DNA from: Escherichia coli
GTDB lineage: Bacteria; Pseudomonadota; Gammaproteobacteria; Enterobacterales; Enterobacteriaceae
Strand: one strand, 5' to 3'
NCBI RefSeq assembly: GCF_003334385.1
Contig: NZ_QOWN01000031.1
Length of the DNA: 54,847 nt
Every line of letters begins with the position of its first letter. The stretch's first letter is position 1. Made by a program: the position numbers and the translations under genes. Below are positions 38,190 through 54,847 of the stretch, in pieces. The notes below the pieces were generated by a model. It was not told where the DNA came from. It worked only from the letters and a program-made list of their open reading frames with translations, and searched no databases.

Positions 38190-39353
38190 TTACGCCTTCT
38201 TTATATCCTCCATAATTCCAGAGTGGGACATATTTGGGACATTATCACCAAAAATGTCGTCTATTTTCCTCGCATGCTCTGTCAAATGATTAGGCGCAAG
38301 GTGAGCATACCTACGAACCATTTCTATGGACTCCCATCCGCCCATTTCCTGAAGCACTGATAATGGGACGCCTGACTGAATCAGCCAGCTTGCCCAGGTG
38401 TGTCTGAGGTCATGGAAACGGAAATCTTCAATTCCTGCACGACGACAAGCTGATAGCCATGATGTCTTGCTGTCGATGCGCATCTTCCTGACCGCAGGCG
38501 TTGATGTTCCATCTGCTCGCTTAGCCGCCTTGGTATGTACAAACACCCATTTGTGATGCTTGCCTATTTGATCACGCAACACTTTACAGGCGGTATCGTT
38601 CAGCGCCACACCAATGGCGCGGTTTGATTTGCTCTCTTCTGGATTCACCCAGGCAACTCGTCGCTGCATGTCGATTTGTTGCCATTCCAGATTTATGATG
38701 TTCGACTTTCTCAGACCAGTTGCCAGCGCAAACTTGACGACAGATTTCAGTGGTTCGGGGCACTCATCAATAAGGCGTTTTGCTTCCTCCTTTTCCAGCC
38801 ATCTGACTCGCTTGTTTCTGACCGCTGGTATCTTGATGACAGGCGCTTTTTCCAGCCACTTCCAGTCGCGTTCTGCAGCACGGAGAATGGCCTTTATCAT
38901 GGCAAGATGCTTTGCCTTTGTCTGAGTTGATACTGGCTTTGGTTCATAAACAGGCGGTTCTTTACCTTTCCTGATGGCGGCCTGAACTTTCTGTTTCCAT
39001 ATTTCTTTCGTCTTTCTGTTATGCATTCTGCTTACAGCAGAGTAAATCTTTGCCTCCGAGATATCTTTAAGCCTTATACCCTCAAAATGTTCAAGCCAGA
39101 ACTCAATCCGGCTTTTATCTGAATCGAGAGATTTTTTATCAGCTTTTTCCTCAAGCCATCTTAGGCAGGCCTCTTCAAAAGTGACATCAGGTAAATCCCC
39201 TAGCTTTTCTACTCGCCAGAGTTCTGCTTTTCGCTTGTCGTGCAACTCCTGAGCTTGCCGCTTGTCCTTTGTGCCAAGAGATTCCTTAATTCGTTTCCCG
39301 CCCGGGAGCGAATACGAGGCATACCATATTTCATTTCTGCGGAAGAGTGACAT
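38190..39353 (-). CDS. intD: Phage tyrosine integrase
   Basis: 387-aa [36 protein letters not shown] with C-terminal catalytic HxxR...Y region; adjacent to the tRNA. Confidence 0.9.
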
Positions 39354-39580
39354 TTTCTTTCCTCTGTTATGCCATCACCCGCGCTCACCTGGACAGTATG
39401 CAGCGGAGACTGAAGCGCCGCAATGCAGGCTTGCCGTGTTGTGAGGTAAGGAGATTTTGGCTTGGTTGGATCTTTACGTGTTGCCTGTAGGCGGCCTGTT
39501 CGTATCCAGTTGGTGGCGGTTGGTCTGGATATCTTAAGAAACTGACAGGCCTCATCGAGTGTGAGGCTGTATGATTCCAT
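39209..39580 (-). CDS. Excisionase-like HTH protein; ORF overlaps the integrase start, possibly decayed
   Basis: AlpA/Xis-like HTH ([26 protein letters not shown]); start taken at MESYSL; 145-nt overlap with int in another frame. Confidence 0.4.
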
Positions 39581-39830
39581 GGTTACCTCTGCTTTTTGAA
39601 CGCATGTCACGTAACTTCTTAATGTGTTCTGCCGTTTCGATCTCTTCTGCTATCCGATCTGCATCAGCTTTATTCACAGGTTCAAAGTCATGATTAAAGC
39701 GGAACATGCTGGCGATACATGTTCTGCCTTTTCGGATGTAGTGAACTTTGTTGTGGGTAGAACGCAGGATTTTGCAGGGAGTGCCGTGGTGGTCGACGTA
39801 CCAGGTGTTAGGAAAAATGATTCTGAACAT
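39552..39830 (-). CDS. Hypothetical phage protein
   Basis: 92-aa ORF in the int-proximal early-left region. Confidence 0.35.
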   Translation of the reverse strand: MFRIIFPNTWYVDHHGTPCKILRSTHNKVHYIRKGRTCIASMFRFNHDFEPVNKADADRIAEEIETAEHIKKLRDMRSKSRGNHGIIQPHTR

Positions 39831-40095
39831 TTTTACACCTCAGTTGGACGATGTTGAAATTTGCTGCTTTGAGGCCATCACAGTCCCCATTGTTTGTTCT
39901 TAAGTTCGATCTCCTCCTGGCAACTTGCACAAGTCCGACAACCCTGAACAGCCAGGCGTCTTGCTCATCTATCGGATCGCCACACTCACAACAATGAGTT
40001 GCGGATACAGTCTGGTAGTTCTGACGACGCATTTTTATTGCTGTATTGCGCTGTAATTCTTCGATTTCTGATGCTGAATCAATGATGTCTGCCAT
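39808..40095 (-). CDS. Possible TraR/DksA-type C4 zinc-finger protein
   Basis: CCECGDPIDEQ motif in a 95-aa ORF; call is by eye only. Confidence 0.35.
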   Translation of the reverse strand: MADIIDSASEIEELQRNTAIKMRRQNYQTVSATHCCECGDPIDEQDAWLFRVVGLVQVARRRSNLRTNNGDCDGLKAANFNIVQLRCKNVQNHFS

Positions 40096-40193
40096 CTTCC
40101 ATTAATCCCTGAATTGTTGGTTAATACGCTTGAGGATGAATGCGAACAATAAAAAAGGAGCCTGTAGCTCCCTGATGATTTTGCTTTTCATGT

Positions 40194-40508
40194 TCACCGT
40201 TCCTTAAAGACGCCGTTTAACATGCCGATCGCCAGGCTTAAATGAGTCGGTGTGAATCCCATCAGCGTTACCGTTTCGCGGTGCTTCTTAAGTACGCTAC
40301 GGCAAATGTCATCGACGTTTTTATCCGGAAACTGCTGTCTGGCTTTTTTGATTTCAGAATTAGCCTGACGGGCAATGCTGCGAAGGGCGTTTTCCTGCTG
40401 AGGTGTCATTGAACAAGTCCCATGTCGGCAAGCATAAGCACACAGAATATGAAGCCCGCTGCCAGAAAAATGCATTCCGTGGTTGTCATGCAGCCTCCCG
40501 ACGGGCAA
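40194..40508 (-). CDS. Hypothetical phage protein
   Basis: 104-aa ORF; the true start may be the internal MTPQQENALRSIARQ. Confidence 0.3.
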   Translation of the reverse strand: MPVGRLHDNHGMHFSGSGLHILCAYACRHGTCSMTPQQENALRSIARQANSEIKKARQQFPDKNVDDICRSVLKKHRETVTLMGFTPTHLSLAIGMLNGVFKER

Positions 40509-41043
40509 GAATCCTTGAGCCGAACGCCATCAACTCTCCACGATCAACGGTCGTAAAGTGGCAGTGTGTACGGGGGTATGGGTGCCAGATAATGAGCATC
40601 GAGCCTTTATTATTTCCACTGACGGGTTTCTCAGTGAGTGGGTTAATAAATGCCAGTCGTCCTGCCGTGATGAATCTGACCTCACTGGCGGTTTGTATCG
40701 CTTCATGAAACCATCCGACAGATGTGTCAGCAGGCAATAACATTACACATCCCACACTACTGAATTTGTTTTCAGTGGCTGCCTTTTTCACAAAAGGGGA
40801 AATATTGCTGTATGGTGGATTCAACCAGACATAACCAGAGGCATATCCCATTGCTTCAGGCCATGAAGTGGTTAATGTGTTCTGCTCCTGTGAGATAAAA
40901 AGCCGACATAGTCGGTTTTTTTCGCTGGCGGCAGCATCAAGTTGAAAAACGAACTCTGCATTAAGCGCAGCAAAAATCTCTGGTGGTGTGCGCCAGCTGT
41001 CGCGATGTTCGGCAGGAGTATTGCTTCCGGTGAAATCAGTCAT
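40486..41043 (-). CDS. Phage DNA N6-adenine methyltransferase
   Basis: 185-aa ORF with the amino-methyltransferase catalytic motif NPPY (VWLNPPYSN). Confidence 0.6.
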   Translation of the reverse strand: MTDFTGSNTPAEHRDSWRTPPEIFAALNAEFVFQLDAAASEKNRLCRLFISQEQNTLTTSWPEAMGYASGYVWLNPPYSNISPFVKKAATENKFSSVGCVMLLPADTSVGWFHEAIQTASEVRFITAGRLAFINPLTEKPVSGNNKGSMLIIWHPYPRTHCHFTTVDRGELMAFGSRILARREAA

Positions 41044-41193
41044 ACAGCCCCCGTTTATTATTTATCGCCTCAGCCAGCCGCTGTGCTTTCAGTGGATTTC
41101 TGATAACAGAAAGGCCGGGAAATACCCAGCCTCGCTTTGTAACGGAGTAGATGAAAGTGATCGCGCCTACCCGGATATTATCGTGAGGATGCT

Positions 41194-41874
41194 TCATCGC
41201 CATTGCTCCCCAAATACAAAACCAATTTCAGCCAGTGCCACGTCCATTTTTTCGATGAACTCCGGCACCATCTCGTCAAAATTCGCCATGTACTTTTCAT
41301 TCCGCTCAATCACGACATAATGCAGGCCTTCACGCTTCATACGCGGGTCATAGTTGGCAAAGTACCAGGCATCTTTTCGCGTCACCCACATGCTGTACTG
41401 CACCTGGGCCATGTAAGCCGACTTTATGGCCTCGAAACCACCGAGCCGGAATTTCATGAAATCCCGGGAGGTAAACGGGCATTTCAGTTCAAGGCCGTTG
41501 CCGTCACTGCATAAACCATCGGGAGAGCAGGCGGTGCGCATACTTTCGTCGCGATAGATGATCGGGGATTCAGTAACATTCACGCCGGAAGTGAATTCAA
41601 ACAGGGTTCTGGCGTCGTTCTCGTACTGTTTTCCCCAGGCCAGCGCCTTAGCATTAACTTCCGGAGCCACACCGGTGCAAACCTCAGCCAGCAGGGTGTG
41701 GAAGTAGGACATTTTCATGTCAGGCCACTTCTTTCCTGAGCGGGGCTTTGCTATCACGTTGTGAACTTCTGAAGCGGTGATGACGCCGAGCCGTAATTTG
41801 TGCCATGCATCATCCCCCTGTTCGACAGCTCTCACGTCGATCCCGGTACGCTGCAGGATAATGTCCGGTGTCAT
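41194..41874 (-). CDS. exo: Lambda-type 5'-3' exonuclease (Red alpha)
   Basis: 226-aa translation matches lambda Exo as I recall it nearly residue for residue ([40 protein letters not shown]...). Confidence 0.9.
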
Positions 41875-42656
41875 GCTGCCACCTTCTGCTCAGTGGCTTT
41901 CTGTTTCAGGAATCCAAGAGCTTTCACTGCTTCGGCCTGTGTCAGTTCTGACGATGCGCGAATGTCGCGGCGAAATATCTGGGAACAGAGCGGCAATAAG
42001 TCGTCATCCCATGTTTTATCCAGGGCGATCAGCAGAGTGTTAATCTCCTGCATGGTTTCATCGTTAACCGGAGTGATGTCGCGTTCTGGCTGACGTTCTG
42101 CAGTGTATGCAGTATTTTCGACAATGCGCTCGGCTTCATCCTTGTCATAGATACCAGCAAATCCGAAGGCCAGGCGGGCACACTGAATCATGGCTTTATG
42201 CCGTAACATCCGTTTGGGATGCGACTGCCACGGGCCGGTGATTTCTCTGCCTTCGCGGGTTTTGAATGGTTCGCGTCGGCATTCATCCATCCACTCGGTA
42301 ACGCAGATCGGATGATTACGGTCCTTGCGGTAAATCCGGCATGTACAGGATTCATTGTCCTGCTCAAAGTCCATGCCATCAAACTGCTGGTTTTCATTGA
42401 TGATGCGGGACCAGCCATCAACGCCCACCACCGGAACGATGCCGTTCTGCTTATCAGGGAAGGCGTAAATTTCTTTCGTCCACGGATTAAGGCCGTATTG
42501 GTTGGCGACGATCAGCAATGCGATGAACTGCGCATCGCTGGCATCGCCTTTAAATGCTGTCTGGCGAAGAGTGGTGATCAGTTCCTGTGGGTCGACAGAA
42601 TCCATGCCGACACGTTCAGCCAGCTTCCCAGCCAGCGTTGCGAGTGCTGTACTCAT
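41871..42656 (-). CDS. bet: Lambda-type single-strand annealing protein (Red beta)
   Basis: 261-aa translation [66 protein letters not shown] matches lambda Bet as I recall it. Confidence 0.9.
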
Positions 42657-42661
42657 CCGTT

Positions 42662-42958
42662 TTATACCTCTGAATCAATATCAACCTGGTGGTGAGCAAT
42701 GGTTTCAACCATGTACTGGATGTGTTCTGCCATGCGCTCCTGAAACTCAACATCGTCATCAAACGCACGGGTAATGGCTTTTTTGCTGGCCCCGTGGCGT
42801 TGCAAATGATCGATGCATAGCGATTCAAACAGGTGCTGGGGCAGGCCTTTTTCCATGTCGTCTGCCAGTTCTGCCTCTTTCTCTTCACGGGCGATCTGCT
42901 GGTAGTGACGCGCCCAGCTCTGAGCCTCAAGACGATCCTGAATGTAATAAGCGTTCAT
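42662..42958 (-). CDS. gam: Gam host-nuclease (RecBCD) inhibitor, short form
   Basis: 98-aa translation [56 protein letters not shown] matches lambda GamS as I recall it. Confidence 0.85.
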
Positions 42959-43035
42959 GGCTGAACTCCTGAAAATGGCTGTGAAAATAGCGCCCGCGAA
43001 ATGCCAGGCTGATTAGGAAAACAGGAAAGGGGGGG

Positions 43036-43446
43036 TTAGTGATTCAGGCCGTTACCGCGTCCGTCGAGAAAAACTTCCACGAGCAAATCACGGGTATAAG
43101 TGCGCTCGATGCCGCGATGCAGATAAAGCCGTCCGCGTAAATTAGCTGATGCTGTCCAGGTACCATCTTTGTGTTTGACCAGCATTCCTGGCATGACCGC
43201 GCCGCGATTAACGGTCTGCGTTCCGTAATGTTGATGAACCATAAAAACTCCTGCCCGTAAGCTGGGCTGCTGAACATATAGAGACTTCTGCGCGTATTCA
43301 GGCGGTGGATGGCCGCCGGTTGTCATAACTAAGCCGCCTCGTTGAAGCGACTGAGGTATGAAATGTTGAGTTAATTTCAGCTGGTCACACCGACGTTCAC
43401 GCGTCCGTTTCACCCCTCGCACTCCCCGAAGCCTGCTGAAATTCAA
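43036..43446 (-). CDS. First gene downstream of the putative pL; arginine-rich N-terminus, possible N-like antiterminator or kil/cIII-position protein
   Basis: 136-aa ORF; N-terminal RLRGVRGVKRTRERR resembles an arginine-rich RNA-binding motif; position relative to OL/pL. Confidence 0.35.
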   Translation of the reverse strand: MNFSRLRGVRGVKRTRERRCDQLKLTQHFIPQSLQRGGLVMTTGGHPPPEYAQKSLYVQQPSLRAGVFMVHQHYGTQTVNRGAVMPGMLVKHKDGTWTASANLRGRLYLHRGIERTYTRDLLVEVFLDGRGNGLNH

Positions 43447-43463
43447 ACTGCGGATCTAAGCGG

Positions 43464-43515
43464 TCATCGCAACGGTGAATCAGGTAGTTGCCGTATCGTT
43501 GTGTTGTTGCGATGA
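43464..43515. promoter_or_regulatory. 10-bp perfect inverted repeat in the leader between the putative pL and the first early-left gene
   Basis: tcatcgcaac (43464-43473) and gttgcgatga (43506-43515) separated by 32 nt. Confidence 0.35.
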
Positions 43516-43519
43516 ACTT

Positions 43520-43600
43520 ATTTAAAACTATAGTTGTTTTATCGTCAACAACAAAAGTTGTTTTATTGGTTGTTTTAGATATAACTGGTTGTATTTAGGA
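43520..43600 (-). promoter_or_regulatory. Putative OL/pL: leftward promoter embedded in GTTGTT/AACAAC operator half-sites
   Basis: Minus-strand gttgTTGACGataaaacaactatagttTTAAAT is a near copy of the pR-side sequence; palindrome aacaacaaaagttgtt at 43555-43570. Confidence 0.5.
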
Positions 43601-43677
43601 TGGATTTATTTTGTGACTTGCATCGCACAGCGATAACTGAAGCGAGGTCGTGGTGGTTTTTTGAACTGTTTGTGTGA

Positions 43678-43705
43678 TGAGGGGAGGCAAAAGAAAACCC
43701 GGCAC
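43678..43705 (-). terminator. Rho-independent terminator ending the cI-defence-candidate transcript
   Basis: Minus strand cccggccgtcgtgccggg stem-loop (6-bp GC stem) followed by ttttctttt, 15 nt after the stop of the 287-aa ORF. Confidence 0.6.
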
Positions 43706-43719
43706 GACGGCCGGGGAAA

Positions 43720-44583
43720 TCATTTCGCATCTACAATAAATAACCTGTTTATCTGGCCTTTTTTAACAGTAGCCTTTGCGGTTATAGTGAATACTGCAGA
43801 TGGATCACCTTTGGTTGATATATATGCACTAAGAGCTCTAATATACGGGTTATTCTTCTTTCCTGCAGCTGGATCGCTAATTTCAGCAGTGATTCTCTTT
43901 TTTGAGTCATCACCATCTAAAATTATTTTAGCTGTCATATTTTGTGCATCAAATTCTGTAAGAAAAGCACGATACTCACGAAGACCGAGAACTTCATCAT
44001 CATCAAGCCTATCAATTTCAGCTTTATCTCTCTCGTTAACTTTTAGAAGGCAGCCGTCAACATTTGTTGCAACACTTATCTGATCGCAAGTATTACCAAT
44101 AGGTGATACTGCCTGCCTTACAGAGGGGCGAAGCTCTACAGCCATTCGGTCAATCAAAGAGATCAACTTATCAATGGTTCCAGCATCCTTGTTTCCCAGT
44201 GCCTCTATGGCCTTTTCAAGTGACTGCTGCAAAGCTTTCATTTCATCTTTCTTGTTAGAATTTCTCGCAAAAATATATTGTAGTATTGCGCCAAGTATAG
44301 TTGCGGCGATCCCCGAGAACAACTGGTTCTGAGTGGCGAAGTTAAGAACTGCTTCAAGAGTAAAGCAGTTAGCTTTTGCTTCGCGTGCGTAAACCTTAAC
44401 TTCCTGATAATTAATGTATTTACTATATTTTTGTGTAACAGAGAAAGAAGCTGCTGTTGAGAGAACTTTAGAAAAACCCTTTAGGGATTCTCCTAGGCAG
44501 TTCAAATCTATTTCATGATTTAAAGCATCTTTTCCGTCATACCTAAGAGAGATTTTTATATCCTGTAAAGCGTCACAATCCAT
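43720..44583 (-). CDS. Unknown-function 287-aa protein at the rexAB-equivalent immunity-region locus; candidate lysogen-expressed anti-phage/superinfection-exclusion protein
   Basis: Directly downstream of and co-oriented with the cI-like repressor; visibly AT-rich versus flanks; central hydrophobic segment [19 protein letters not shown]; followed by an intrinsic terminator; no motif I can assign. Confidence 0.55.
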
Positions 44584-44649
44584 AAATCGCTCTCGTCTAA
44601 TTCTAATTAAATTTACTATCCCCTAAACGACTCATCAGCACAGTACTGA

Positions 44650-45339
44650 TTATCCATGTTTCCTGTACGTCTGGGGCATGCTCCCAATAACCTTACCGAA
44701 GATGAACACACGGTTCATCTCGTCTTTCTCGATCGGGTCCCACGGTGAGTAGCTCTTGTTATCAGAGATAACCAGCAGCTTATCCTTCATCATTTGCAGG
44801 CGCTTTACATGGGCTGTGTCGTCGTACAGAAACGCATAGATACCATCACCGTCGAAAGATTTAACCGTGATATCAACGAACAGCAGATCACCTGGTTCGA
44901 TCGTTCCTGACATGCTGTCACCACGCACGTTAATGATGCGGATATTTTCCGCCTTCCTACCATCGAACATGTGACGAGCATCGTCAAACGAGTACTCAAC
45001 CGAGCGTAGAACTTCTACAAACTCACGGTTGATGACTCCCGGCCCAGCACTGACTTCTATATCAAGAACGTCAATCTTGAAGTATTTGGAATGGCTGACA
45101 GTTGATTGTATTGGTTGCACTGTACTGTCTGACATATTTCCAACGCCAGAAGATAACCATTCTGCGCGCACACCCAAAGCGTTCGCGATCTCCACGATTT
45201 TAGTTGTTTGATTAGCTTTCCCTGTTTCGATTTTCTGAATAGCAGCCTGGCTAACCCCGACCAAATCCCCAAGCGCCTTTTGTGTAAGGCCTCGCGCTAA
45301 TCTGGCTTCTTTAAGTCTTTCTGAGAGTGTTGTTTTCAT
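44650..45339 (-). CDS. cI-like prophage repressor (HTH plus S24 LexA-like autopeptidase domain)
   Basis: Start taken at MKTTLSERLKEARLARGLTQKALGDLVGVSQAAIQKIETG (XRE HTH); C-terminal domain with GDSM motif (NVRGDSMSGTIEPGD) and a downstream lysine (HVKRLQ); divergent from cro. Confidence 0.8.
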   Translation of the reverse strand: MKTTLSERLKEARLARGLTQKALGDLVGVSQAAIQKIETGKANQTTKIVEIANALGVRAEWLSSGVGNMSDSTVQPIQSTVSHSKYFKIDVLDIEVSAGPGVINREFVEVLRSVEYSFDDARHMFDGRKAENIRIINVRGDSMSGTIEPGDLLFVDITVKSFDGDGIYAFLYDDTAHVKRLQMMKDKLLVISDNKSYSPWDPIEKDEMNRVFIFGKVIGSMPQTYRKHG

Positions 45340-45443
45340 AGTCCAAATGTACAACCAAGGTTTTATTCCATCAAACGAAAATGGTTGTTGACTAAAAACA
45401 ACCATAGTTTTAATCTTGATTCAAATTAACCACGGAGGTTGTT
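45340..45443. promoter_or_regulatory. Putative OR region with pR (and presumably pRM) between cI and cro
   Basis: Palindrome ATGGTTGTTgactaaaAACAACCAT (45381-45405); TTGACT (45388-45393), 17-nt spacer, TAATCT (45411-45416); additional GGTTGTT/AACAACC half-sites at about 45350 and 45437. Confidence 0.6.
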
Positions 45444-45674
45444 ATGAACCCAGCTATCAAAACAGCGATCAATATCGTTGGTTCACAAAAGAAACTGGGC
45501 GCTGCTTGCGAAGTTTCACAGCAGGCCGTCTATAAGTGGCTTCACAACAAAGCAAAGGTATCCCCTGAACATGTCGGCAGCATTGTTACGGCTACTGGTG
45601 GAGTAGTGAAGGCATACCAGATTCGCCCGGATCTTCCGAAGTTGTTTCCACACACCGAAAAGAACGCAGCTTAA
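45444..45674 (+). CDS. Cro-like small DNA-binding protein
   Basis: 76-aa ORF divergent from cI with GGAGG ribosome-binding site; HTH-like segment LGAACEVSQQAVYKWL. Confidence 0.65.
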   Translation: MNPAIKTAINIVGSQKKLGAACEVSQQAVYKWLHNKAKVSPEHVGSIVTATGGVVKAYQIRPDLPKLFPHTEKNAA

Positions 45675-45743
45675 ATTTCCATTTCACGCTCTTTAACAAT
45701 AAGCAATCAACTTAACAGTCAATTCAAACTAAAGGAGTCAATT

Positions 45744-46283
45744 ATGCAACCACTTACATACCAACAGACTAGCGGATTTAGCCCGACTGCGGTGATAAAT
45801 CGTTCTCAAACAAAACAGGTGCCAGGCCACGAAAAAATCCGTGATGCCGTCCGCGCCTGGTCGGCTGTAGATAATCAGGATGTCGTTGCCACACTCATTG
45901 TGAATGAGTATCGGGAGCAGGGCGGCGGCACCATCGATTTCCCTGATGATGTCAGCCGTGCACGCCAGAAGCTGTTCCGCTTCCTCGATAACAAATTCGA
46001 TTCTGAAAAATACCGAAATAACGTGCGTGAACTGACCCCGGCAATTCTGGCGGTACTACCGCTGGAATATCGCGGTTACCTGGTTGAGCAGGATAGCTTC
46101 ATGGCTAGGTTGGCTGAAATGGAAAAGGAACTCAGTGAGGCAAAACAGGCTGTCATTCTCAACGCACCACGCCACCAGAAACTGAAGGAAATTAGTGAAG
46201 GTATTGTGTCGATGTTTCGTGTGGACCCAGATCTGGCTGGTCCATTGATGGCGATGGTTACTACCATGCTGGGGGCGATATGA
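45744..46283 (+). CDS. Protein at the cII position (possibly YdaT-like regulatory protein)
   Basis: 179-aa ORF between cro and O; family assignment uncertain. Confidence 0.35.
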   Translation: MQPLTYQQTSGFSPTAVINRSQTKQVPGHEKIRDAVRAWSAVDNQDVVATLIVNEYREQGGGTIDFPDDVSRARQKLFRFLDNKFDSEKYRNNVRELTPAILAVLPLEYRGYLVEQDSFMARLAEMEKELSEAKQAVILNAPRHQKLKEISEGIVSMFRVDPDLAGPLMAMVTTMLGAI

Positions 46284-46369
46284 CAGGTTCAGAAATGGCG
46301 AAAGCCGGTCTGCTGGAACAGAACCGACTTTCAGGTGCAAATCGTAACACACTCATTGCGGGAGGAATT

Positions 46370-47299
46370 ATGGCAAACACTGCTGAGATATTCAATTTTC
46401 CAGTGCCGGATGCGGCACAAAAGGAGCCGCGCGTGGCAGATCTCGATGATGGTTATACGCGCATTGCAAATGAGTTGCTGGAAGCTGTAATGCTGGCCGG
46501 ATTAACACAGCACCAGCTTCTGGTCTTCCTGGCTGTCATGCGCAAAACATATGGCTTTAATAAAAAACTGGATTGGGTGAGCAACGAGCAACTTTCCGAG
46601 TTGACCGGGATATTGCCGCACAAGTGTTCTGCTGCAAAAAGTGTTCTGGTAAAGCGTGGGATTTTTATTCAGAGCGGGCGGAATATCGGCATTAATAATG
46701 TGGTCAGTGAATGGTCAACATTACCCGAATCAGGTAAGAAAAATAAAGTTTACCTGAAAGAGGTAAATTTACCTGAATCAGGTAAGAAAAGTTTACCCAA
46801 ATCAGGTAAAGACGTTTACCCGAATCAGGTAAACACAAAAGACAAACTAACAAAAGACAATATAAAACCTTTTTCGTCCGAGAATTCTGGCGAATCCTCT
46901 GACCAGCCAGAAAACGATCTTCCTGTGGTGAAACCGGATGCTGCAATTCAGAGCGGCAGCAAGTGGGGGACAGCAGAAGACCTGACCGCCGCAGAGTGGA
47001 TGTTTGACATGGTGAAGACCATCGCGCCATCAGCCAGAAAACCGAATTTTGCAGGGTGGGCTAACGATATCCGCCTGATGCGTGAACGTGACGGACGTAA
47101 CCACCGCGACATGTGTGTACTGTTCCGCTGGGCATGCCAGGACAACTTCTGGTCCGGTAACGTGCTGAGTCCGGCCAAACTCCGCGACAAGTGGACCCAG
47201 CTCGAAATCAACCGTAACAAGCAACAGGCAGGCATGATAGCCAGCAAACCAAAACTCGACCTGACAAACACTGACTGGATTTACGGGGTGGATTTATGA
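46370..47299 (+). CDS. Replication initiator protein O
   Basis: Start taken at MANTAEIFNFPVPD; N-terminal region resembles lambda O (VADLDDGYTRIANELLEA...LAVMRKTYGFNK); contains iterons internally. Confidence 0.8.
   Translation: MANTAEIFNFPVPDAAQKEPRVADLDDGYTRIANELLEAVMLAGLTQHQLLVFLAVMRKTYGFNKKLDWVSNEQLSELTGILPHKCSAAKSVLVKRGIFIQSGRNIGINNVVSEWSTLPESGKKNKVYLKEVNLPESGKKSLPKSGKDVYPNQVNTKDKLTKDNIKPFSSENSGESSDQPENDLPVVKPDAAIQSGSKWGTAEDLTAAEWMFDMVKTIAPSARKPNFAGWANDIRLMRERDGRNHRDMCVLFRWACQDNFWSGNVLSPAKLRDKWTQLEINRNKQQAGMIASKPKLDLTNTDWIYGVDL
46721..46833 (+). repeat. Replication origin iterons inside the O gene
   Basis: Five copies of about 19 bp TTTACC(C/T)(G/A)AATCAGGTAA(G/A), followed by an A-rich stretch (acaaaagacaaactaacaaaagacaatataaaacc). 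Confidence 0.75.
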
Positions 47300-47997
47300 A
47301 AAACATCGCCGCACAGATGGTTAACTTTGACCGTGAGCAGATGCGTCGGATCGCCAACAACATGCCGGAACAGTACGACGAAAAGCCGCAGGTACAGCAG
47401 GTAGCGCAGATCATCAACGGTGTGTTCAGCCAGTTACTGGCAACTTTCCCGGCGAGCCTGGCTAACCGTGACCAGAATGAACTGAACGAAATCCGCCGCC
47501 AGTGGGTTCTGGCTTTCCGGGAAAATGGGATCACCACGATGGAACAGGTTAACGCTGGAATGCGCGTAGCCCGTCGGCAGAATCGACCATTCCTGCCATC
47601 ACCCGGGCAGTTTGTTGCCTGGTGCCGGGAAGAAGCATCCGTTACCGCCGGGCTGCCAAACGCCAGCGAGCTGGTTGATATGGTTTACGAGTATTGCCGG
47701 AAGCGTGGCCTGTATCCGGACGCAGAGTCTTATCCATGGAAATCAAACGCGCACTACTGGTTGGTTACCAACCTGTACCAGAACATGCGGGCCAATGCGC
47801 TGACTGACGCGGAATTACGGCGTAAAGCTGCCGATGAGCTGACCTGTATGACCGCGCGAATTAACCGTGGTGAGGCGATACCTGAACCAGTAAAACAACT
47901 TCCTGTCATGGGCGGTAGACCTTTAAATCGTGCACAGGCTTTGGCGAAGATCGCAGAAATCAAAGCTAAGTTCGGACTGAAAGGAGCAAGTGTATGA
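47296..47997 (+). CDS. Replication protein P (DnaB helicase loader)
   Basis: 233-aa translation matches lambda P as I recall it (MKNIAAQMVNFDREQMRRIANNMPEQYDEKPQVQQVAQIINGVFSQLLATFPASLANRD). Confidence 0.85.
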   Translation: MKNIAAQMVNFDREQMRRIANNMPEQYDEKPQVQQVAQIINGVFSQLLATFPASLANRDQNELNEIRRQWVLAFRENGITTMEQVNAGMRVARRQNRPFLPSPGQFVAWCREEASVTAGLPNASELVDMVYEYCRKRGLYPDAESYPWKSNAHYWLVTNLYQNMRANALTDAELRRKAADELTCMTARINRGEAIPEPVKQLPVMGGRPLNRAQALAKIAEIKAKFGLKGASV

Positions 47998-48287
47998 CGG
48001 GCAAAGAGGCAATTATTTATTACCTGGGGACGCATAAGAGCTTCTGTGCGCAGGACGTTGCCGCGGTAACAGGCGCAACAGTAACCAGCATAAATCAGGC
48101 TGCGGCTAAAATGGCGCGGGCAGGAATCTTGGTCATTGATGGTAAGGTCTGGCGAACGGTGTATTACAGATTCGCTACCAGGGAAGAACGGGAAGGAAAG
48201 GTGAGCACTAACCTGATTTTTAAGGAGTGTCGCCAGAGTGCCGCGATGAAGCGGGTGTTGATGGTTTGGGGGAGGGTAGGGGTATGA
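47994..48287 (+). CDS. ren: Ren protein
   Basis: 97-aa translation MTGKEAIIYYLGTHKSFCAQDVAAVTGATVTSINQAAAKMARAGILVIDGKVWRTVYYRFATREEREGK matches lambda Ren as I recall it. Confidence 0.8.
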   Translation: MTGKEAIIYYLGTHKSFCAQDVAAVTGATVTSINQAAAKMARAGILVIDGKVWRTVYYRFATREEREGKVSTNLIFKECRQSAAMKRVLMVWGRVGV

Positions 48288-48484
48288 GCATGATGGATTT
48301 CGCAGAAACTAAAAAGGCTATCGACGCCATCACAACCGACTGGTCTATCCGAGGACCGTATCACGAAGACGACGGGAAATATTACGCCTTGCTTCGTGGA
48401 GAGTGGGTTGGTGGCGGGTATATCGGAAAACGGAAAGCCCTTGATGCCATTCTCGAAAAGTTAATCCAGGAGGCCGCCCAATGA
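48284..48484 (+). CDS. Hypothetical nin-region protein
   Basis: Start taken at MSMMDFAETKKAIDAITTDW within ORF 48227-48484. Confidence 0.4.
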   Translation: MSMMDFAETKKAIDAITTDWSIRGPYHEDDGKYYALLRGEWVGGGYIGKRKALDAILEKLIQEAAQ

Positions 48485-48696
48485 GCAACATCGACAAACC
48501 GTGAACTGGTGGATGCCGCCATTGAATTGGCCGGAGAGTTTTATGCGATGCAGGGCTATTCGCATCGTCCTGGCTTCAAGTATTGGCAATCTCCGCACCC
48601 GCATGAGCGCCTGTGCTTTGAAATGGCTTGTGTGGCATTCGAAACCATTCGCGGCTCAGATGTAATGGACGCCGTATCTGAGTTGGAGGATGAAGA

Positions 48697-49110
48697 ATGA
48701 GCAACATCGACAAACGCGCATTACGTGAAATCGCTGAGGCAGCAGTTGGTGCACATGAGCGCCTTAGTGTTATGCCGCCTGATGACATTTTCGATATCTC
48801 ACTGGCAGAAGGAACTCAGCTTGATGCAGATATCACTGCCTTGAGCGCGCTGAACTCCGCAGCCAACCCAGCCACAGTGCTGGCGCTGCTGGATGAGCTG
48901 GAAGCCAAAGACCAGAGGATTGCTGTGCTGACCGAATCGCTCAAGCAGACGGTTTCAGGATACAAATCCTGCCTGCGTACCGGACATGAGCGCATTCTTG
49001 ACCTTGGCGGTGACTGTGACGCGCCAGAAGTGATGATTGCAGGCAATCCTGACATTCAGCAGGCGCAGAAGCTGATCGCCGCCGCATCCGGTAAAGGAGA
49101 GGCATCATGA
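48697..49110 (+). CDS. Hypothetical phage protein, possibly Ead/Ea22-like N-terminal module
   Basis: 137-aa ORF MSNIDKRALREIAEAAVGAHERL...ALLDELEAKDQRIAVL (coiled-coil-like); the same first 6 codons recur at 48481 in a truncated copy. Confidence 0.4.
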   Translation: MSNIDKRALREIAEAAVGAHERLSVMPPDDIFDISLAEGTQLDADITALSALNSAANPATVLALLDELEAKDQRIAVLTESLKQTVSGYKSCLRTGHERILDLGGDCDAPEVMIAGNPDIQQAQKLIAAASGKGEAS

Positions 49111-49151
49111 GCACTATTACCAAACAATGACTGCAGCAGAAAATTGCCGAC

Positions 49152-49913
49152 ATGGAAGCAGCCAGAGATGAAATCCCGTTCGGTCTGGACGAAGGCGACA
49201 GCAACACGCTGGCGGCACTGCGTATCGCGCTGGCATCGCTCGAAGCGGAGCCTGCCATTCACCGGTGGCGTCGTGTGACCTCTGAGCCATACGGCCCCTA
49301 TCCTTGGCATTATGGTGATTTTATCGGCTTCTCAAAGCCCGTTGATGGGATTGAGGATGAGTATTTTTACTCCGCCCCGCCAGAGCCAGCCAATGCCGAA
49401 ACCGTAGCCTGGCTGTGGTCACACAGGAAACACCCGAGCGAAGTCACGCTTGTTCGCCCTGAAGATGATGAGAGAGCGGAGGGTGCTCACTGGTCTGGCT
49501 GGAGTTGTCAGGCGCTTTATGCAGCACCGCCAGTTCCGGTATCTGTGCCCACATTCGAGAAATGGTGTGAGTTGACTGAGCAGAAACCTGTCGGATGGGG
49601 GCGTGATGCTATGAAAGAAGCGTATGACGGATGCCGCGACGCCATGCTTCAGGGTGCCGAAAAAGCCGAGTCGCCCACCACCATGCAGACCGCGCCAGCC
49701 CTAGATTCTTCGCCAAAAATTTCCGAGTCGCCCGTCAGCAACTCTCCGGTGATTCCGGATGGTTGGGTGCTGGTTCCTAAGGAGCCAACTCCAGAAATGC
49801 GTGAGGCGTACCATCAGGCGCAGGAAGAGTGTGAAGATGGCGGTAGATTATGGAGCCCAGACCACCAATGGAAGGCCATGATCGCAGCAGCACCGCAGCA
49901 GGAGGCGAAGTGA
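49152..49913 (+). CDS. Hypothetical phage protein, possibly Ea22-like C-terminal part
   Basis: 253-aa ORF with PTPEMREAY motif near the C-terminus; separated from the preceding ORF by stops in all frames. Confidence 0.35.
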   Translation: MEAARDEIPFGLDEGDSNTLAALRIALASLEAEPAIHRWRRVTSEPYGPYPWHYGDFIGFSKPVDGIEDEYFYSAPPEPANAETVAWLWSHRKHPSEVTLVRPEDDERAEGAHWSGWSCQALYAAPPVPVSVPTFEKWCELTEQKPVGWGRDAMKEAYDGCRDAMLQGAEKAESPTTMQTAPALDSSPKISESPVSNSPVIPDGWVLVPKEPTPEMREAYHQAQEECEDGGRLWSPDHQWKAMIAAAPQQEAK

Positions 49914-49964
49914 TTATGTCGTGACAGCATAATTGCGATGTCAACGATAAGCAGAGGTTTGAAA

Positions 49965-50159
49965 ATGAAATCACAATCACCAGTGCAGCATGAAGTTAAC
50001 ATCGACGGCAAAGAGTATGTTGTCACAGTAGTCCAAACCGGCAAGTCAACGTGGAGGGCATGGGGAGATTCCTGGGGGCGCCATATAGTCGAAACAGGTT
50101 CTAGCGAACATAGCGCGCTTTCTCATTGGAAAGCAAAAGCTTTAGTTATGAATGGGTAG
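49965..50159 (+). CDS. Hypothetical small protein
   Basis: Start taken at MKSQSPVQHEVNIDGKEYVV within ORF 49938-50159. Confidence 0.3.
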   Translation: MKSQSPVQHEVNIDGKEYVVTVVQTGKSTWRAWGDSWGRHIVETGSSEHSALSHWKAKALVMNG

Positions 50160-50182
50160 CGCGGAAACTTTGAAGGTATAAT

Positions 50183-50208
50183 CCCCTCAAATAATCGAGG
50201 GGGTTTTT
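50183..50208 (+). terminator. Intrinsic terminator hairpin directly abutting the start of the following cargo gene
   Basis: cccctcaaataatcgagggg followed by gttttt; the 3' arm overlaps the probable ribosome-binding site of the ORF starting at 50209. Confidence 0.5.
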
Positions 50209-50718
50209 ATGTCTGGTTGGGATAACGGTATAGATGCAGTTTCTGCGATTGCAGCTATCGCATCTGCGGTAGCAACTTATTTAGCATGGCGATCCTCAGA
50301 AGCTAGCAGGGCCACATCCGAAAAAGCTTTGCAGTTGCAAGGAAAGCAGTATTTGTACGAGACATTAAAAGCTTGCGCTGAGAGAGCGAATTCATACTCA
50401 AAAGGAAAGAAAGGGGCTGACTGGAGCTTTCATGACGCAGCCAATATTGTTCGATGTTTGAACATGGCAATGGGGAGCATAATAAATTACTCAGATACCA
50501 ACAATCAGGATGCAATGAAAGGTCTGAAGCAATTCTTTATTAGCCAATTAAACATGGAGCTTTTTGAAGAGCTCAACTATGAGGTTGGGCCTGATGCCTT
50601 CTTTCACGGAGAGGAGCTAACCAGCATGACGAGCGATATTTACTCGCAGTGGTTAAACATTATTTCATTCTTTAACCTCATGATTGTCACAGATGATGAC
50701 CTCGCCGATGAAACATAG
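50209..50718 (+). CDS. Unknown-function 169-aa membrane-anchored protein; moron-like cargo
   Basis: N-terminal hydrophobic helix (IDAVSAIAAIASAVATYLAW); AT-rich; insulated by an upstream hairpin and a 187-bp downstream spacer; occupies the variable locus that carries emrE/ybcKLM in K-12 DLP12. Confidence 0.5.
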   Translation: MSGWDNGIDAVSAIAAIASAVATYLAWRSSEASRATSEKALQLQGKQYLYETLKACAERANSYSKGKKGADWSFHDAANIVRCLNMAMGSIINYSDTNNQDAMKGLKQFFISQLNMELFEELNYEVGPDAFFHGEELTSMTSDIYSQWLNIISFFNLMIVTDDDLADET

Positions 50719-50905
50719 CTTGATTGATTTTCCATAATCAACCCGCCATAATCATGTCATCGGAGCCTGAACAACTCCGGTGACTTCTGCGCTAAACGGG
50801 GACGTTTATGCGCATATACAATCCAAACTCTCTTCTCCCTTCACAGATGCAGAAATGCACCTGCGTTTTTTTGCATCCAACGTTTGACCTCTGCGGAGGT
50901 GAAGC

Positions 50906-51361
50906 GTGAACCTCCCACAAGACGGTATCAAATTGCATCGCGGTAACTTCACCGCTATCGGTCAGCAGATCCAGCCTTATCTGGAGGACGGAAAATGCTT
51001 TCGCATGGTGCTTAAACCGTGGCGTGAGAAACGCAGTCTTTCCCAGAATGCACTCAGCCACATGTGGTACAGCGAAATCAGTGAATACCTCATCAGCAGG
51101 GGTAAAACGTTCGCCACTCCAGCTTGGGTAAAAGATGCTCTCAAACACACATATCTCGGTTATGAAACCAAAGACTTGGTTGATGTCGTAACCGGTGAGA
51201 TCACCACTATCCAGTCGTTACGCCATACCTCCGATCTTGATACCGGAGAGATGTATATCTTCCTGTGTAAGGTTGAAGCCTGGGCGGTGAATATTGGCTG
51301 CCACCTGACTATTCCGCAGAGCTGCGAGTTCCAGCTGCTCCGCGACAAACAGGAGGAGTAA
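50906..51361 (+). CDS. ybcN: DLP12-type NinB-position protein (DNA base-flipping protein)
   Basis: 151-aa translation [50 protein letters not shown] matches K-12 YbcN as I recall it; GTG start with GGAGG ribosome-binding site. Confidence 0.8.
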
Positions 51362-51531
51362 TGGCTACACCGCTTATTCGTGTCATGAACGGACACATCT
51401 ACAGAGTACCAAATCGTCGTAAGCGTAAACCGGAGCTGAAGCCTTCCGAAATACCAACACTGCTCGGATATACCGCCAGCCTGGTTGATAAAAAATGGTT
51501 GCGACTGGCAGCAAGGAGGAATCATGGCTGA
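51361..51531 (+). CDS. ninE: NinE-like protein
   Basis: 56-aa [59 protein letters not shown]; not in the ORF track because it is under 60 aa. Confidence 0.7.
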   Translation: MATPLIRVMNGHIYRVPNRRKRKPELKPSEIPTLLGYTASLVDKKWLRLAARRNHG

Positions 51532-51814
51532 TTTGAGAAAAGCAGCGCGTAGTCGGGAATGCCAGGTAAGAATCCCTGGCGTATGTAATGGCAACCCTGA
51601 AACGTCTGTACTGGCACATATCCGGCTGACTGGATTGTGCGGCACCGGTACCAAACCGCCAGACCTGATTGCCACCATTGCATGTTCTGCCTGCCACGAC
51701 GAAATCGACCGCCGCACACATTTTGTCGATGCTGCATATGCAAAAGAATGCGCGCTGGAAGGTATGGCGAGAACACAGGTTATCTGGCTGAAAGAGGGGG
51801 TTATTAAGGCGTGA
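51524..51814 (+). CDS. ybcO: DUF1364-family putative nuclease
   Basis: Start at [28 protein letters not shown] (96 aa); Cys-rich; overlaps the ninE end. Confidence 0.75.
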
Positions 51815-52173
51815 ATACCTACAGCATCACATTACCCTGGCCTCCGAGCAATAATCGCTATTACCGCCATAATCGCGGGCGCACGCACGTCAGCGCAGAG
51901 GGGCAGGCATACCGCGATAACGTCGCCCGAATCATTAAAAACGCAATGCTGGATATCGGCCTGGCTATGCCTGTGAAAATCCGCATTGAGTGCCACATGC
52001 CGGATCGCCGTCGCCGTGACCTGGATAATCTGCAAAAAGCCGCTTTTGACGCACTCACTAAAGCAGGTTTCTGGCTGGATGATGCTCAGGTCGTTGATTA
52101 CCGCGTTGTGAAGATGCCTGTTACCAAAGGTGGGAGGCTGGAACTGACCATCACCGAAATGGGGAATGAATGA
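51811..52173 (+). CDS. rusA: Holliday junction resolvase RusA
   Basis: 120-aa translation [31 protein letters not shown] matches K-12 RusA as I recall it. Confidence 0.9.
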
Positions 52174-52310
52174 TGTTTGAGTTTTATATGGCAGAACGTC
52201 TTCGCCACCGCTGGGGGCGTCTGCGCTTATATCGTTTCCCCGGTTCTGTTTTGACCGATTACCGAATACTGAAGAATTACGCCAAAACCCTGACAGGAGC
52301 AGGAGTATGA
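52170..52310 (+). CDS. ylcG: Small protein YlcG
   Basis: 46-aa [49 protein letters not shown] overlapping the rusA stop. Confidence 0.6.
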
Positions 52311-52395
52311 AGTCAGAGATAACAATCAACTAATACTGTTTCGTTGATTTTTGCTTGTAATTGGCGTTCTGGTCTGATTTTTGTGGAGTAAGTTG

Positions 52396-52779
52396 ATGCG
52401 TGATATTCAGATGGTTCTTGAGCGTTGGGGAGCGTGGGCGGCTAATAATCATGAAGATGTGACCTGGTCGTCCATTGCCGCCGGTTTTAAGGGATTAATT
52501 ACTTCAAAAGTAAAATCTCGCCCGCAATGTTGTGACGATGACGCGATGATCATTTGCGGGTGCATGGCCCGTCTGAAAAAGAACAACAGCGATTTGCACG
52601 ATTTATTAGTAGATTATTATGTAGTCGGTATGACATTCATGTCACTGGCAGGTAAGCATTGCTGCTCTGATGGTTATATCGGGAAAAGGTTACAGAAGGC
52701 TGAGGGCATAATTGAAGGGATGTTAATGGCATTAGATATCCGGTTAGAGATGGATATCGTTGTTAATAACTCTAATTAA
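52396..52779 (+). CDS. quuD: Q-like late-gene antiterminator
   Basis: Start at [22 protein letters not shown] (127 aa); Cys-rich zinc-binding region [12 protein letters not shown]. Confidence 0.8.
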
Positions 52780-52799
52780 TACGCCAATTATTTACTAAA

Positions 52800-52965
52800 A
52801 GTTATTAAAAATGGGGCGTTGAAACGCCCCCAAAAATAAAGGGTAATATATAACAGAAGGTTTGTATAGTTAGAAGCAAGGTTGTGCTTCTAAAGGAAGT
52901 GGCTTGAGGGAGCCACTTATATGTTGGGGAGGCAAAGCCTCCCACAACATATCTTTTAGTAATCA
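52800..52965 (-). terminator. Cluster of stem-loops downstream of nmpC (terminator region)
   Basis: Hairpins ggggcgttgaaacgcccc (T-run on the minus strand), gaagcaaggttgtgcttc, gtggcttgagggagccac, gttggggaggcaaagcctcccacaac. Confidence 0.55.
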
Positions 52966-52967
52966 AA

Positions 52968-54638: not shown

Positions 54639-54847
54639 ATGAAATCCATGGATAAGTTAACAACGGGTGTCGCCTATGGCACCTCAGCAGGTAGTGCCGG
54701 TTACTGGTTTTTACAGCTGCTCGATAAAGTCACGCCCTCACAGTGGGCAGCAATAGGTGTGCTGGGTAGCCTGGTATTTGGCCTGCTGACGTACCTGACA
54801 AACCTTTATTTCAAGATTAAAGAAGATAAGCGCAAGGCTGCGAGAGG
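54639..54847 (+). CDS. essD: Phage holin (3' partial at the window end)
   Basis: [68 protein letters not shown] matches K-12 EssD as I recall it; the ORF runs off the window. Confidence 0.75.

What the first reader, a model, noticed from the sequence alone, without database searches (positions are those of the whole stretch)
43036..43519. No canonical N gene; first pL-proximal ORF has an arginine-rich N-terminus and is preceded by a long perfect inverted repeat
Between the putative pL and gam there is a single ORF (43036-43446) whose N-terminus (RLRGVRGVKRTRERR) resembles an arginine-rich motif of N-type antiterminators, although the protein is longer (136 aa) and otherwise unfamiliar to me. 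Its leader contains a 10-bp perfect inverted repeat with a 32-nt spacer (43464-43473 and 43506-43515). It could be a nut-like RNA element, a regulatory protein binding site or a processing site. Alternatively the ORF is a kil/cIII-position gene and antitermination relies only on quuD.
Basis: inference. Interest (0 to 1): 0.4.

Follow-up and report, generated by a model that had tools for sequence, protein, structure and literature searches.

The report
Untranslated pL leader before a kil gene
The supposed arginine-rich "N-like" protein is an open frame running through the untranslated leader of a prophage early operon; the real gene is an ordinary 68-residue KilR-type cell-division inhibitor, and the leader carries a 5' hairpin and a conserved two-hairpin RNA element inherited from the terminator region that follows gene N in phage phi80.

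Summary
The sequence features are real, but the N-like reading fails.

- **Setting.** The window is an E. coli lambdoid prophage at the DLP12/argU site, 100% identical to strain SCU-104.
- **The ORF.** Only its last 68 codons (43036-43242) are a gene, a KilR/phrog_294 FtsZ inhibitor with a strong AGGAG Shine-Dalgarno (SD) site. The 68-codon extension that carries the Arg-rich stretch has no SD and no third-position bias. It is broken by a stop or frameshift in 16 of 33 natural variants.
- **Antitermination parts.** I found no N, Nun or gp24 homologue, no boxA or boxB in the leader, and no HK022-type put RNA.
- **The inverted repeat.** The 10-bp repeat is exact. It sits at the predicted +1 of the pL transcript and folds well (z = -3.6). 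A 6-11 bp form persists behind three different immunity promoters, but it has no covariation. It is most likely a 5'-terminal mRNA hairpin.
- **A conserved RNA element.** Inside the "ORF", 43293-43365 is a two-hairpin element with strong covariation and no Rfam family. It is homologous to the region after gene N in phi80 (GenBank "t-L1") and to annotated terminators in HK639. Here it lacks the U-tracts.

The leader occurs in 2210 of 5426 complete E. coli genomes. Overall this is ordinary, with one modestly interesting RNA motif.

The parts
43698..43715 (-). Intrinsic terminator ending the repressor operon (S24 repressor 44650-45405 plus the 287-aa DUF7946 gene 43720-44583), upstream of oL/pL
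   Evidence: Terminator scan: CCCGGCCGTCGTGCCGGG followed by TTTTCTTTT.
43520..43548 (-). Predicted pL promoter: TTGACG (43548-43543), 17-nt spacer, TTAAAT (43525-43520). It lies among GTTGTT/AACAAC operator repeats. The predicted +1 is near A43513.
   Evidence: Read from the sequence. It is nearly identical to the pR core TTGACT-17-TTAATC at 45388-45416. The consensus scan did not list it, so this is an inference with no transcript data.
43243..43513 (-). Untranslated pL leader of about 271 nt, from the predicted +1 to the kil start codon
   Evidence: 31 variable sites spread 10/9/12 over the three codon positions, with frameshifts and stops tolerated. PGAP annotates no feature here. The 43364-43520 stretch is present in 2210 of 5426 complete E. 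coli genomes.
43464..43515 (-). The inverted repeat: a hairpin at the 5' end of the pL transcript, with arms 43506-43515 and 43464-43473 and a 32-nt C-rich loop
   Evidence: A stem of 6-11 bp is kept behind three different immunity promoters through changes on the 5' side only, all G.U-compatible, plus two pair-creating changes at 43505/43474. There is no covariation.
43323..43361 (-). Element E, hairpin 1: outer helix CAUA/UAUG, one C-G pair, then a 9-bp upper stem AGUCGCUUC / GAGGCGGCU with loop AAC. It sequesters the AUG at 43326-43324 and a GAGG.
   Evidence: RNAalifold and pair counts on 32 diverse copies: 7 pairs with compensatory changes, 99.2% of cells paired against 87.4% when shuffled and 32-53% when slid. 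UACG and UUCG tetraloops occur in other copies.
43301..43317 (-). Element E, hairpin 2: GGCGG-CCAUCCA-CCGCC. Here it is followed by UGAAUACG, with no U-tract.
   Evidence: The stem is invariant or G.U in 32 copies. In a minority of other phages it is followed by T6-7 and is annotated as a terminator in HK639. In phi80 it falls in the GenBank 't-L1' feature.
43248..43252 (-). Shine-Dalgarno sequence AGGAG, 5 nt before the kil ATG
   Evidence: Read from the sequence.
43036..43242 (-). kil: a 68-aa KilR-family FtsZ / cell-division inhibitor. This is the true gene inside the 136-aa ORF.
   Evidence: phrog_294 at E = 1e-37 over residues 1-68. NF008465 at E = 9e-17. 36% identity to Rac KilR, E = 9e-13. 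Of 24 variable sites, 16 are at codon position 3, with no indels. PGAP CDS WP_000233576.1 in the identical genome.
43243..43446 (-). The non-coding 'N-terminal extension' of the ORF, which includes the Arg-rich stretch
   Evidence: Broken in 16 of 33 unique variants: 9 carry CAG>TAG at 43353 and 7 carry frameshifts. A further nonsense change occurs in strain 23CRST032. There are no Pfam hits and only a weak hit, E = 0.024, to a PHROG of unknown function.

Best explanation
The finding covers the 5' untranslated leader of the early-left (pL) operon of an N-less lambdoid prophage, together with its first gene, a 68-aa KilR-type division inhibitor.

**Shown**
- The 136-aa ORF is kil plus an accidentally open, non-coding upstream frame, so the Arg-rich peptide is not made.
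- The leader contains a single-copy, covarying two-hairpin RNA element (E, 43293-43365). It is homologous to the sequence that follows gene N in phi80 and to the terminator pair that follows the first pL genes in HK639.
- No N, nut or put was detected.

**Inferred**
- pL starts transcription at about 43513, so the inverted repeat forms a stem that begins at or next to the 5' end of the mRNA.
- A stem-loop at the very 5' end would protect the transcript from 5'-end-dependent decay.
- E is what remains of the tL1 'gate' of N- or put-dependent relatives. Here it lacks both the upstream strong terminator and any U-tract. At most it attenuates, pauses or processes transcripts entering the toxic kil gene.
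- kil-gam-bet-exo are therefore expressed from pL without antitermination. The first strong intrinsic terminator in the operon is 3.3 kb downstream, at 40155-40173.
For: **Gene identity and true start:**

**The extension is not coding:**

**Absence of N, Nun and gp24:**

**No boxA in the leader:** the only match to the boxA pattern (up to 2 mismatches) in the window is at 45687, downstream of the cro-like gene.

**No put RNA:** a covariance model built from HK022 putL, HK022 putR and HK639 putL scores at best 5.9 bits, E = 2.6, across 39000-54847.

**No second copy:** nothing from the leader recurs elsewhere in the window.

**The inverted repeat**
- It is exact and thermodynamically unusual.
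- It sits at the predicted +1 behind three different promoters, with a stem of 6-11 bp always present among 30 unique variants.

**Element E**
- Covariation.
- One copy in the window, at 91.5 bits.
- Homology to the post-N region of phi80 and to HK639 terminators.
- Hairpin 2 is followed by a T-run in some phages.

**Terminator map of the pL operon:**

**Leader distribution:** 2210 of 5426 complete genomes, at least 95% identical in 2143.
Against: - The transcription start is predicted only. The consensus promoter scan did not list this promoter.
- The 5' hairpin has no covariation. Its 3' arm is invariant and the shuffle control is uninformative, so sequence conservation alone could explain its persistence.
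- No half-life, termination or processing data exist.
- E is conserved far more strictly than a defunct terminator should be: the loop CCAUCCA and AUGACAAC are near-invariant even without a U-tract. It probably has a function I have not identified.
- The put model was built from only three sequences.
Confidence: 0.6

Rival explanations
1. The leader (5' hairpin, G-rich middle and E) is a cis-acting RNA that replaces N-nut. It would be a functional analogue of HK022/HK639 put that modifies RNA polymerase, or blocks Rho, so the early-left operon is read through.
For: The phage has no N, and the leader is highly conserved in about 41% of complete E. coli genomes. Its first bases resemble the pL transcript starts of phi80, HK639 and HK225: 17 of 21 identical with HK639, reached by 6 of 300 shuffles. 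HK639, a relative that also carries E, is annotated with a putL-like RNA.
Against: The put covariance model finds nothing. There is no twin element in the pR operon, whereas nut and put occur in both early operons. The long mid-leader stem is broken by common variants without compensation. The 150-nt fold is no better than shuffles, z = -0.18. No strong terminator lies before 40173 that would need suppression.
Confidence: 0.1
2. The inverted repeat acts in DNA, as binding sites for a dimeric or looping regulator around pL. It would act together with the ATCGC-N3-GCGAT palindrome at 43621-43633, upstream of the operators.
For: Both arms contain ATCGC/GCGAT, the same motif as the upstream palindrome. 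That palindrome is also conserved in the Perceval-type immunity region. 'CATCG' recurs at pL starts of other immunity types.
Against: The changes in the 5' arm (C>U, A>G) keep G.U pairs, which matter for RNA and not for a DNA site. The 5' arm differs between immunity types while the 3' arm does not. No candidate protein was identified.
Confidence: 0.1
3. Hairpin 1 of E, about 14 bp with internal loops, is an RNase III or other processing site. It would separate the promoter-proximal RNA from the kil-gam-bet-exo message and set kil expression.
For: It is a long, covarying stem with conserved top and base. It sits directly after a terminator in most phages. A hairpin-1-only version follows a terminator in HK022. 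From general knowledge, lambda pL RNA is processed by RNase III near N and tL1.
Against: The stem is shorter than typical RNase III substrates. No cleavage data exist.
Confidence: 0.15
4. One reading: the 136-aa ORF encodes an N-like antiterminator whose arginine-rich motif binds a nut-like hairpin in its own leader.
For: KRTRERR resembles the TRRRERR of lambda N (from memory), and the ORF occupies the N position.
Against: See the observation check. There is no SD and no codon-position bias, the frame is broken in 16 of 33 variants, there is no family hit, and the C-terminal half is Kil.
Confidence: 0.02

Closest known systems
KilR of the Rac prophage (NCBIfam NF008465; phrog_294 'Kil protein for bacterial septation inhibition')
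   Same: Similar length (68 against 73 aa) with start-to-start alignment. 36% identity, E = 9e-13. It is an early-left operon gene upstream of the recombination genes. The immunity region on the pR side is also Rac-like, with a YdaT-domain gene.
   Different: It scores 60.9 bits, below the curated NF008465 cut-off of 92, so it belongs to a sister subfamily with the HK225, mEp237 and Klebsiella-phage Kil proteins. Rac has the KilS sRNA and a terminator upstream of kilR instead of this leader. It is not related to lambda Kil (stated in PMC5793797).
The phi80 region after gene N (GenBank M11919 't-L1 regulatory signal terminator') and the two annotated terminators after HK639_44
   Same: Element E matches at 76 bits in both. 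The order is the same: CAUAC, hairpin 1, UUAUGACAAC, hairpin 2. The position is the same, downstream of pL and before the kil/recombination block.
   Different: In phi80, HK639, HK225 and most contigs, E directly follows a strong terminator and one to three genes (N, or others). Here it follows 150 nt of leader with no terminator and no gene. Hairpin 2 has no U-tract here.
Lambda N / nutL
   Same: It occupies the position between pL and the recombination genes. A short Arg-rich run is present in the conceptual translation.
   Different: There is no N protein and no boxA or boxB in the leader. The Arg-rich frame is non-coding.
HK022 / HK639 put antiterminator RNA
   Same: It is a structured RNA close to the pL start in an N-less lambdoid phage.
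   Different: There is no sequence or structure match, no pR copy, and no terminator cluster to overcome.
5'-terminal stabilising stem-loops of E. coli mRNAs (ompA type; established knowledge, not tested here)
   Same: The stem begins at or within about 2 nt of the predicted 5' end.
   Different: The loop is unusually large (32 nt), the start site is unverified, and no stability data exist.

Membership tests
Lambda-type N antiterminator | A translated arginine-rich motif at the N-terminus of the first pL gene product | tested here: not met
   The TTG has no SD. Variable sites fall 10/9/12 over the codon positions. The frame is broken in 16 of 33 variants.
Lambda-type N antiterminator | Sequence homology to a known N, gp24 or Nun family | tested here: not met
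   No Pfam hit even at E <= 10. The only PHROG hit is Kil.
Lambda-type N antiterminator | nut sites (boxA plus a boxB hairpin) in both the pL and pR transcripts | tested here: not met
   No boxA in the leader at up to 2 mismatches. A perfect boxA exists after the cro-like gene, but I saw no hairpin after it by eye. No leader segment is repeated on the pR side.
KilR / phrog_294 division inhibitor | Sequence homology over the full length | tested here: met
   phrog_294 at E = 1e-37. NF008465 at E = 9e-17, but below the curated cut-off. BLASTP to Rac KilR at E = 9e-13.
KilR / phrog_294 division inhibitor | A small protein (about 68-73 aa) encoded in the early-left operon next to the recombination genes | tested here: met
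KilR / phrog_294 division inhibitor | Inhibition of FtsZ and cell division | not testable with these tools
   Known for Rac KilR (PMC5793797, PMC12482147). Inferred by homology here.
HK022-type put RNA | Two stem-loops with the conserved put sequence | tested here: not met
   Covariance model R1 scores at best 5.9 bits, E = 2.6. The model is weak, built from 3 sequences.
HK022-type put RNA | Copies downstream of both pL and pR | tested here: not met
phi80-type post-N / tL1 element (E) | Hairpin 1 with a CAUA/UAUG base, AUGACAAC, and hairpin 2 GGCGG-CCAUCCA-CCGCC | tested here: met
   91.5 bits, E = 3e-21, to model R2. Covariation.
phi80-type post-N / tL1 element (E) | Acts as a transcription terminator | tested here: inconclusive
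   No U-tract follows either hairpin in the window, and the terminator scan finds nothing at 43243-43515. U-tracts are present in some other copies. The function in phi80 rests on a broad GenBank feature.
5'-terminal stabilising stem-loop | A stem that starts within a few nucleotides of the mRNA 5' end | tested here: inconclusive
   This holds for the predicted +1 behind three promoter types, but no start site has been mapped.

The most novel reading that the evidence does not exclude
Element E, possibly together with the 5' leader, is an undescribed and widespread regulatory RNA of lambdoid early-left operons. It is single-copy per phage and strongly covarying, with a near-invariant AUGACAAC linker and CCAUCCA loop, and it has no Rfam family. 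Its job would be more than termination: for example a protein- or RNA-recognised gate that controls entry of transcription or translation into the kil/recombination block. In this very common E. coli prophage lineage it would operate without N or put.
Probability: 0.15. Interest if true: 0.6.

Novelty: new member of a known kind. Interest (0 to 1): 0.3.

Why it matters
**Annotation.** The long ORF is annotated as a 139-aa Kil in some phage records, for example Perceval. That should be corrected to the 68-aa protein.

**Biology.**
- This lineage shows a compact N-less early-left operon, and its leader sits in about 41% of complete E. coli genomes.
- In Rac, kilR is known to be kept silent by Rho/NusG-dependent termination (PMC5793797). 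How transcription into kil is limited here therefore matters for host fitness.
- Element E is a well-supported structured RNA that no RNA family library covers. It would be a reasonable candidate for experimental work, but nothing here overturns current understanding.

Tried and rejected
- **Rfam.** The region and three related loci gave no relevant family.
- **Pfam.** The ORF gave nothing.
- **put hypothesis.** The covariance model was negative. By eye, HK022 putL shares only short strings with the leader, and the local alignment was not significant, with 191 of 300 shuffles as good.
- **Leader peptide.** I considered a short upstream ORF (uORF), MTTGGHPPP, with a polyproline stall at ATG 43326.
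  - The frame after PPP is not conserved. The uORFs run 16, 21, 23, 28, 38... codons, and GCGCAGAAGTCT is conserved in different frames.
  - One copy has a 1-nt insertion that changes the peptide but lengthens the stem.
  - The substitutions fit the hairpin better than the peptide.
- **E as a sigma-70 promoter or a multi-copy cassette linker.** There are no acceptable hexamers by eye, and E is single-copy per contig.
- **Long mid-leader stem (43432-43443 / 43373-43384).** Common variants at 43373, 43447 and 43369 break its pairs.
- **Rho-loading (rut-like) composition.** Only the first ~60 nt are C-rich, and the result was inconclusive.
- **Rac comparison.** The region upstream of Rac kilR (KilS sRNA) is not homologous to this leader.
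- **Access problems.** Two paper look-ups by id failed because the papers are not held (King et al. 2011 on HK639; the phi80 genome paper).

Full report
**Context.** The window is 100% identical over this region to E. coli SCU-104. The prophage sits at tRNA-Arg beside fimZ and carries intD, ybcN, ninE, rusA, quuD, a porin gene and essD. It is therefore an intact relative of DLP12. It is closest to the Bievrevirus phages Perceval and 4A7, at 90-97% identity.

On the minus strand the order is:
- an S24 repressor (44650-45405);
- a 287-aa DUF7946 gene (43720-44583);
- a terminator (43698-43715);
- operators and pL;
- the leader;
- kil, gam, bet and exo.

The pR side has a cro-like gene, a YdaT-domain gene, and O and P. 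The immunity region is therefore Rac-like.

**The ORF.** The ORF at 43036-43446 exists, but several results place the true start at ATG 43242:
- phrog_294 (Kil) matches only residues 60-136.
- NCBIfam NF008465 (FtsZ inhibitor, KilR) aligns profile positions 1-70 with residues 69-136.
- Rac KilR aligns Met1 to Met69, at 36% identity and E = 9e-13.
- PGAP annotates a 207-nt CDS in the identical genome, and RefSeq does the same for phage 4A7.
- ATG 43242 is preceded by AGGAG at a 5-nt spacing, whereas TTG 43446 has no Shine-Dalgarno sequence.

I compared 33 unique natural variants of the region:

| Segment | Variable sites | Codon position 1 / 2 / 3 | Indels | Frame intact |
|---|---|---|---|---|
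| kil CDS (43036-43242) | 24 | 3 / 5 / 16 | none | 32 of 33 |
| Extension (43243-43446) | 31 | 10 / 9 / 12 | several | 17 of 33 |

Of the 16 broken extensions, nine carry CAG>TAG at 43353 and seven carry frameshifts. Strain 23CRST032 has a further nonsense codon. The Arg-rich stretch is therefore a conceptual translation of a G-rich untranslated leader.

**No N, nut or put.**
- The only boxA in the window is a perfect CGCTCTTTAACAA at 45687-45699, 13 nt after the cro-like stop. None is in the leader.
- A covariance model of HK022 putL, HK022 putR and HK639 putL finds only noise, at most 5.9 bits.
- No part of the leader recurs elsewhere in the window.

**The inverted repeat.**
- It is exact, occurs by chance in about 4% of shuffles of the region, and folds with z = -3.6.
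- The best promoter is TTGACG-17-TTAAAT, a near copy of the pR core. It puts +1 at about A43513, so an 8-10 bp stem starts at the 5' end of the RNA. This is an inference.
- Related prophages join the same leader to two other immunity regions. Their predicted starts give G-UCGCAAC (Perceval type) and AUUGCA (O157/strain 116 type), and both still pair with the invariant 3' arm.
- Among 30 unique variants a stem of 6-11 bp always forms.
- All changes are on the 5' side and are G.U-compatible. Two independent changes at 43505/43474 add a pair. Because the 3' arm never varies there is no covariation, and the controls are uninformative.
- The first 21 transcribed bases resemble those of the phi80, HK639 and HK225 pL transcripts.

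I read this as a 5'-terminal mRNA hairpin, probably protective, with moderate confidence.

**A conserved RNA element inside the 'ORF'.**
- HK225 and Klebsiella phage KO-TP1 share with the window a near-identical block upstream of kil, although their kil genes are only about 73% identical.
Each carried one copy. The element usually sits directly after a strong intrinsic terminator and is flanked by many different small genes.
- Among the 129 copies from the first scan, only 54 have kil within 220 nt downstream.
- The reading frame after the AUG is not conserved.
- RNAalifold on 32 diverse copies gives two hairpins: a long hairpin 1 (CAUA/UAUG base, then a 9-bp stem) and hairpin 2 (GGCGG-CCAUCCA-CCGCC).
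- Seven pairs show compensatory changes. 99.2% of cells are paired, against 87.4% in shuffles and 32-53% when the partners are slid.
- Rfam has no matching family.
- The element is the sequence that follows gene N in phi80, where GenBank marks 't-L1'. In HK639 it coincides with annotated terminators.
- Some copies have T6-7 after hairpin 2. The window copy has no U-tract, and no terminator is called in the leader.
- A hairpin-1-only version follows a terminator in HK022.

The window phage therefore looks like a phi80-type early-left operon that lacks nutL, N and the strong terminator. What remains is pL, 150 nt of leader, the E element and kil.

**Mechanism.** The most likely reading is that pL transcripts carry a protective 5' hairpin and pass through a weakened tL1-type element that may attenuate or process them. 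They then express kil-gam-bet-exo without antitermination. The first strong terminator is at 40155-40173. E is conserved more strictly than a dead terminator should be, so an unidentified function is likely.

**Distribution.** The leader (43364-43520) is present in 2210 of 5426 complete E. coli genomes. It is at least 95% identical in 2143 of them and is unannotated.

**Verdict.** The ORF and the repeat are real. The N-like reading is refuted and the kil reading is confirmed. The overall picture is ordinary, apart from a well-supported and uncatalogued RNA element.

Noticed in passing
window 45687-45699 (+): A perfect 13/13 match to the boxA consensus CGCTCTTTAACAA lies 13 nt after the cro-like stop, which is the nutR position. 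I saw no boxB-type hairpin after it. It is absent from the Perceval/4A7-type immunity regions. The bases after it (ACAGTCAAT) resemble those after the phi80 nutL boxA (ACAGCGTCAAT).
   Followed up: partly
window 43498-43509 (-): CAACAACACAAC at the 5' end of the pL leader is a perfect 12-nt complement of the GcvB R1 seed (GcvB nt 72-83). It extends to about 15 bp with G.U pairs. A complement of at least 12 nt appears in 3 of 2000 mononucleotide shuffles. It resembles the GcvB-binding 5' end of the phage anti-sRNA AgvB (PMC4104026, supplement). This was noticed post hoc, and the segment lies partly inside the hairpin stem.
   Followed up: partly
window 43621-43633: A palindrome, ATCGC-ACA-GCGAT, lies between the repressor-operon terminator and the operators. 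It shares the ATCGC/GCGAT motif of the leader repeat and is conserved in the Perceval-type immunity region. It could be a protein-binding site.
   Followed up: no
window 43253-43267 (-): A small hairpin, GCCC-AGCUUAC-GGGC, lies immediately 5' of the kil Shine-Dalgarno sequence. Other phages have GCC-GCGAUAA-GGC at the same place. The stem is the same as in lambda boxB, but the loop differs.
   Followed up: no
window 43720-44583 (-); L008 549-2150: The slot between the repressor gene and pL (the rex position) holds a 287-aa DUF7946 / phrog_5147 gene here. In other immunity types of the same prophage family it holds a SIR2-family gene or an ASCH-domain gene. These look like swappable lysogen-expressed cargo, possibly defence genes.
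   Followed up: no
window 40155-40173 (-) and 50180-50205 (+): These are the strongest intrinsic terminator candidates inside the early operons. One lies in the pL operon before the TraR/DUF4222/xis/int genes. The other lies in the pR operon upstream of ybcN-rusA-quuD. How they are passed without N is unknown.
   Followed up: no
L005 (phage D2) 2888-3180: Phage D2 is a recombinant. The leader and the first codons of the KilR-type region are fused to lambda-like cIII and kil sequence; the conceptual uORF ends ...MRKLRDGWK.
   Followed up: no
L009 4406-4503 (-), MG1655 Rac: Rac carries an annotated sRNA, KilS, with a terminator about 175 nt upstream of kilR. It is not homologous to the leader studied here, but it occupies the analogous position.
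   Followed up: partly
L004 4413-4510 (-), phage HK225: An Rfam isrB (Hfq-binding sRNA) match above the gathering score (38.2 bits) lies on the strand opposite to the early-left genes.
   Followed up: no
window ~39808-40095 (-): PGAP marks the TraR/DksA-family gene of the early-left operon as frameshifted in the identical genome.
   Followed up: no
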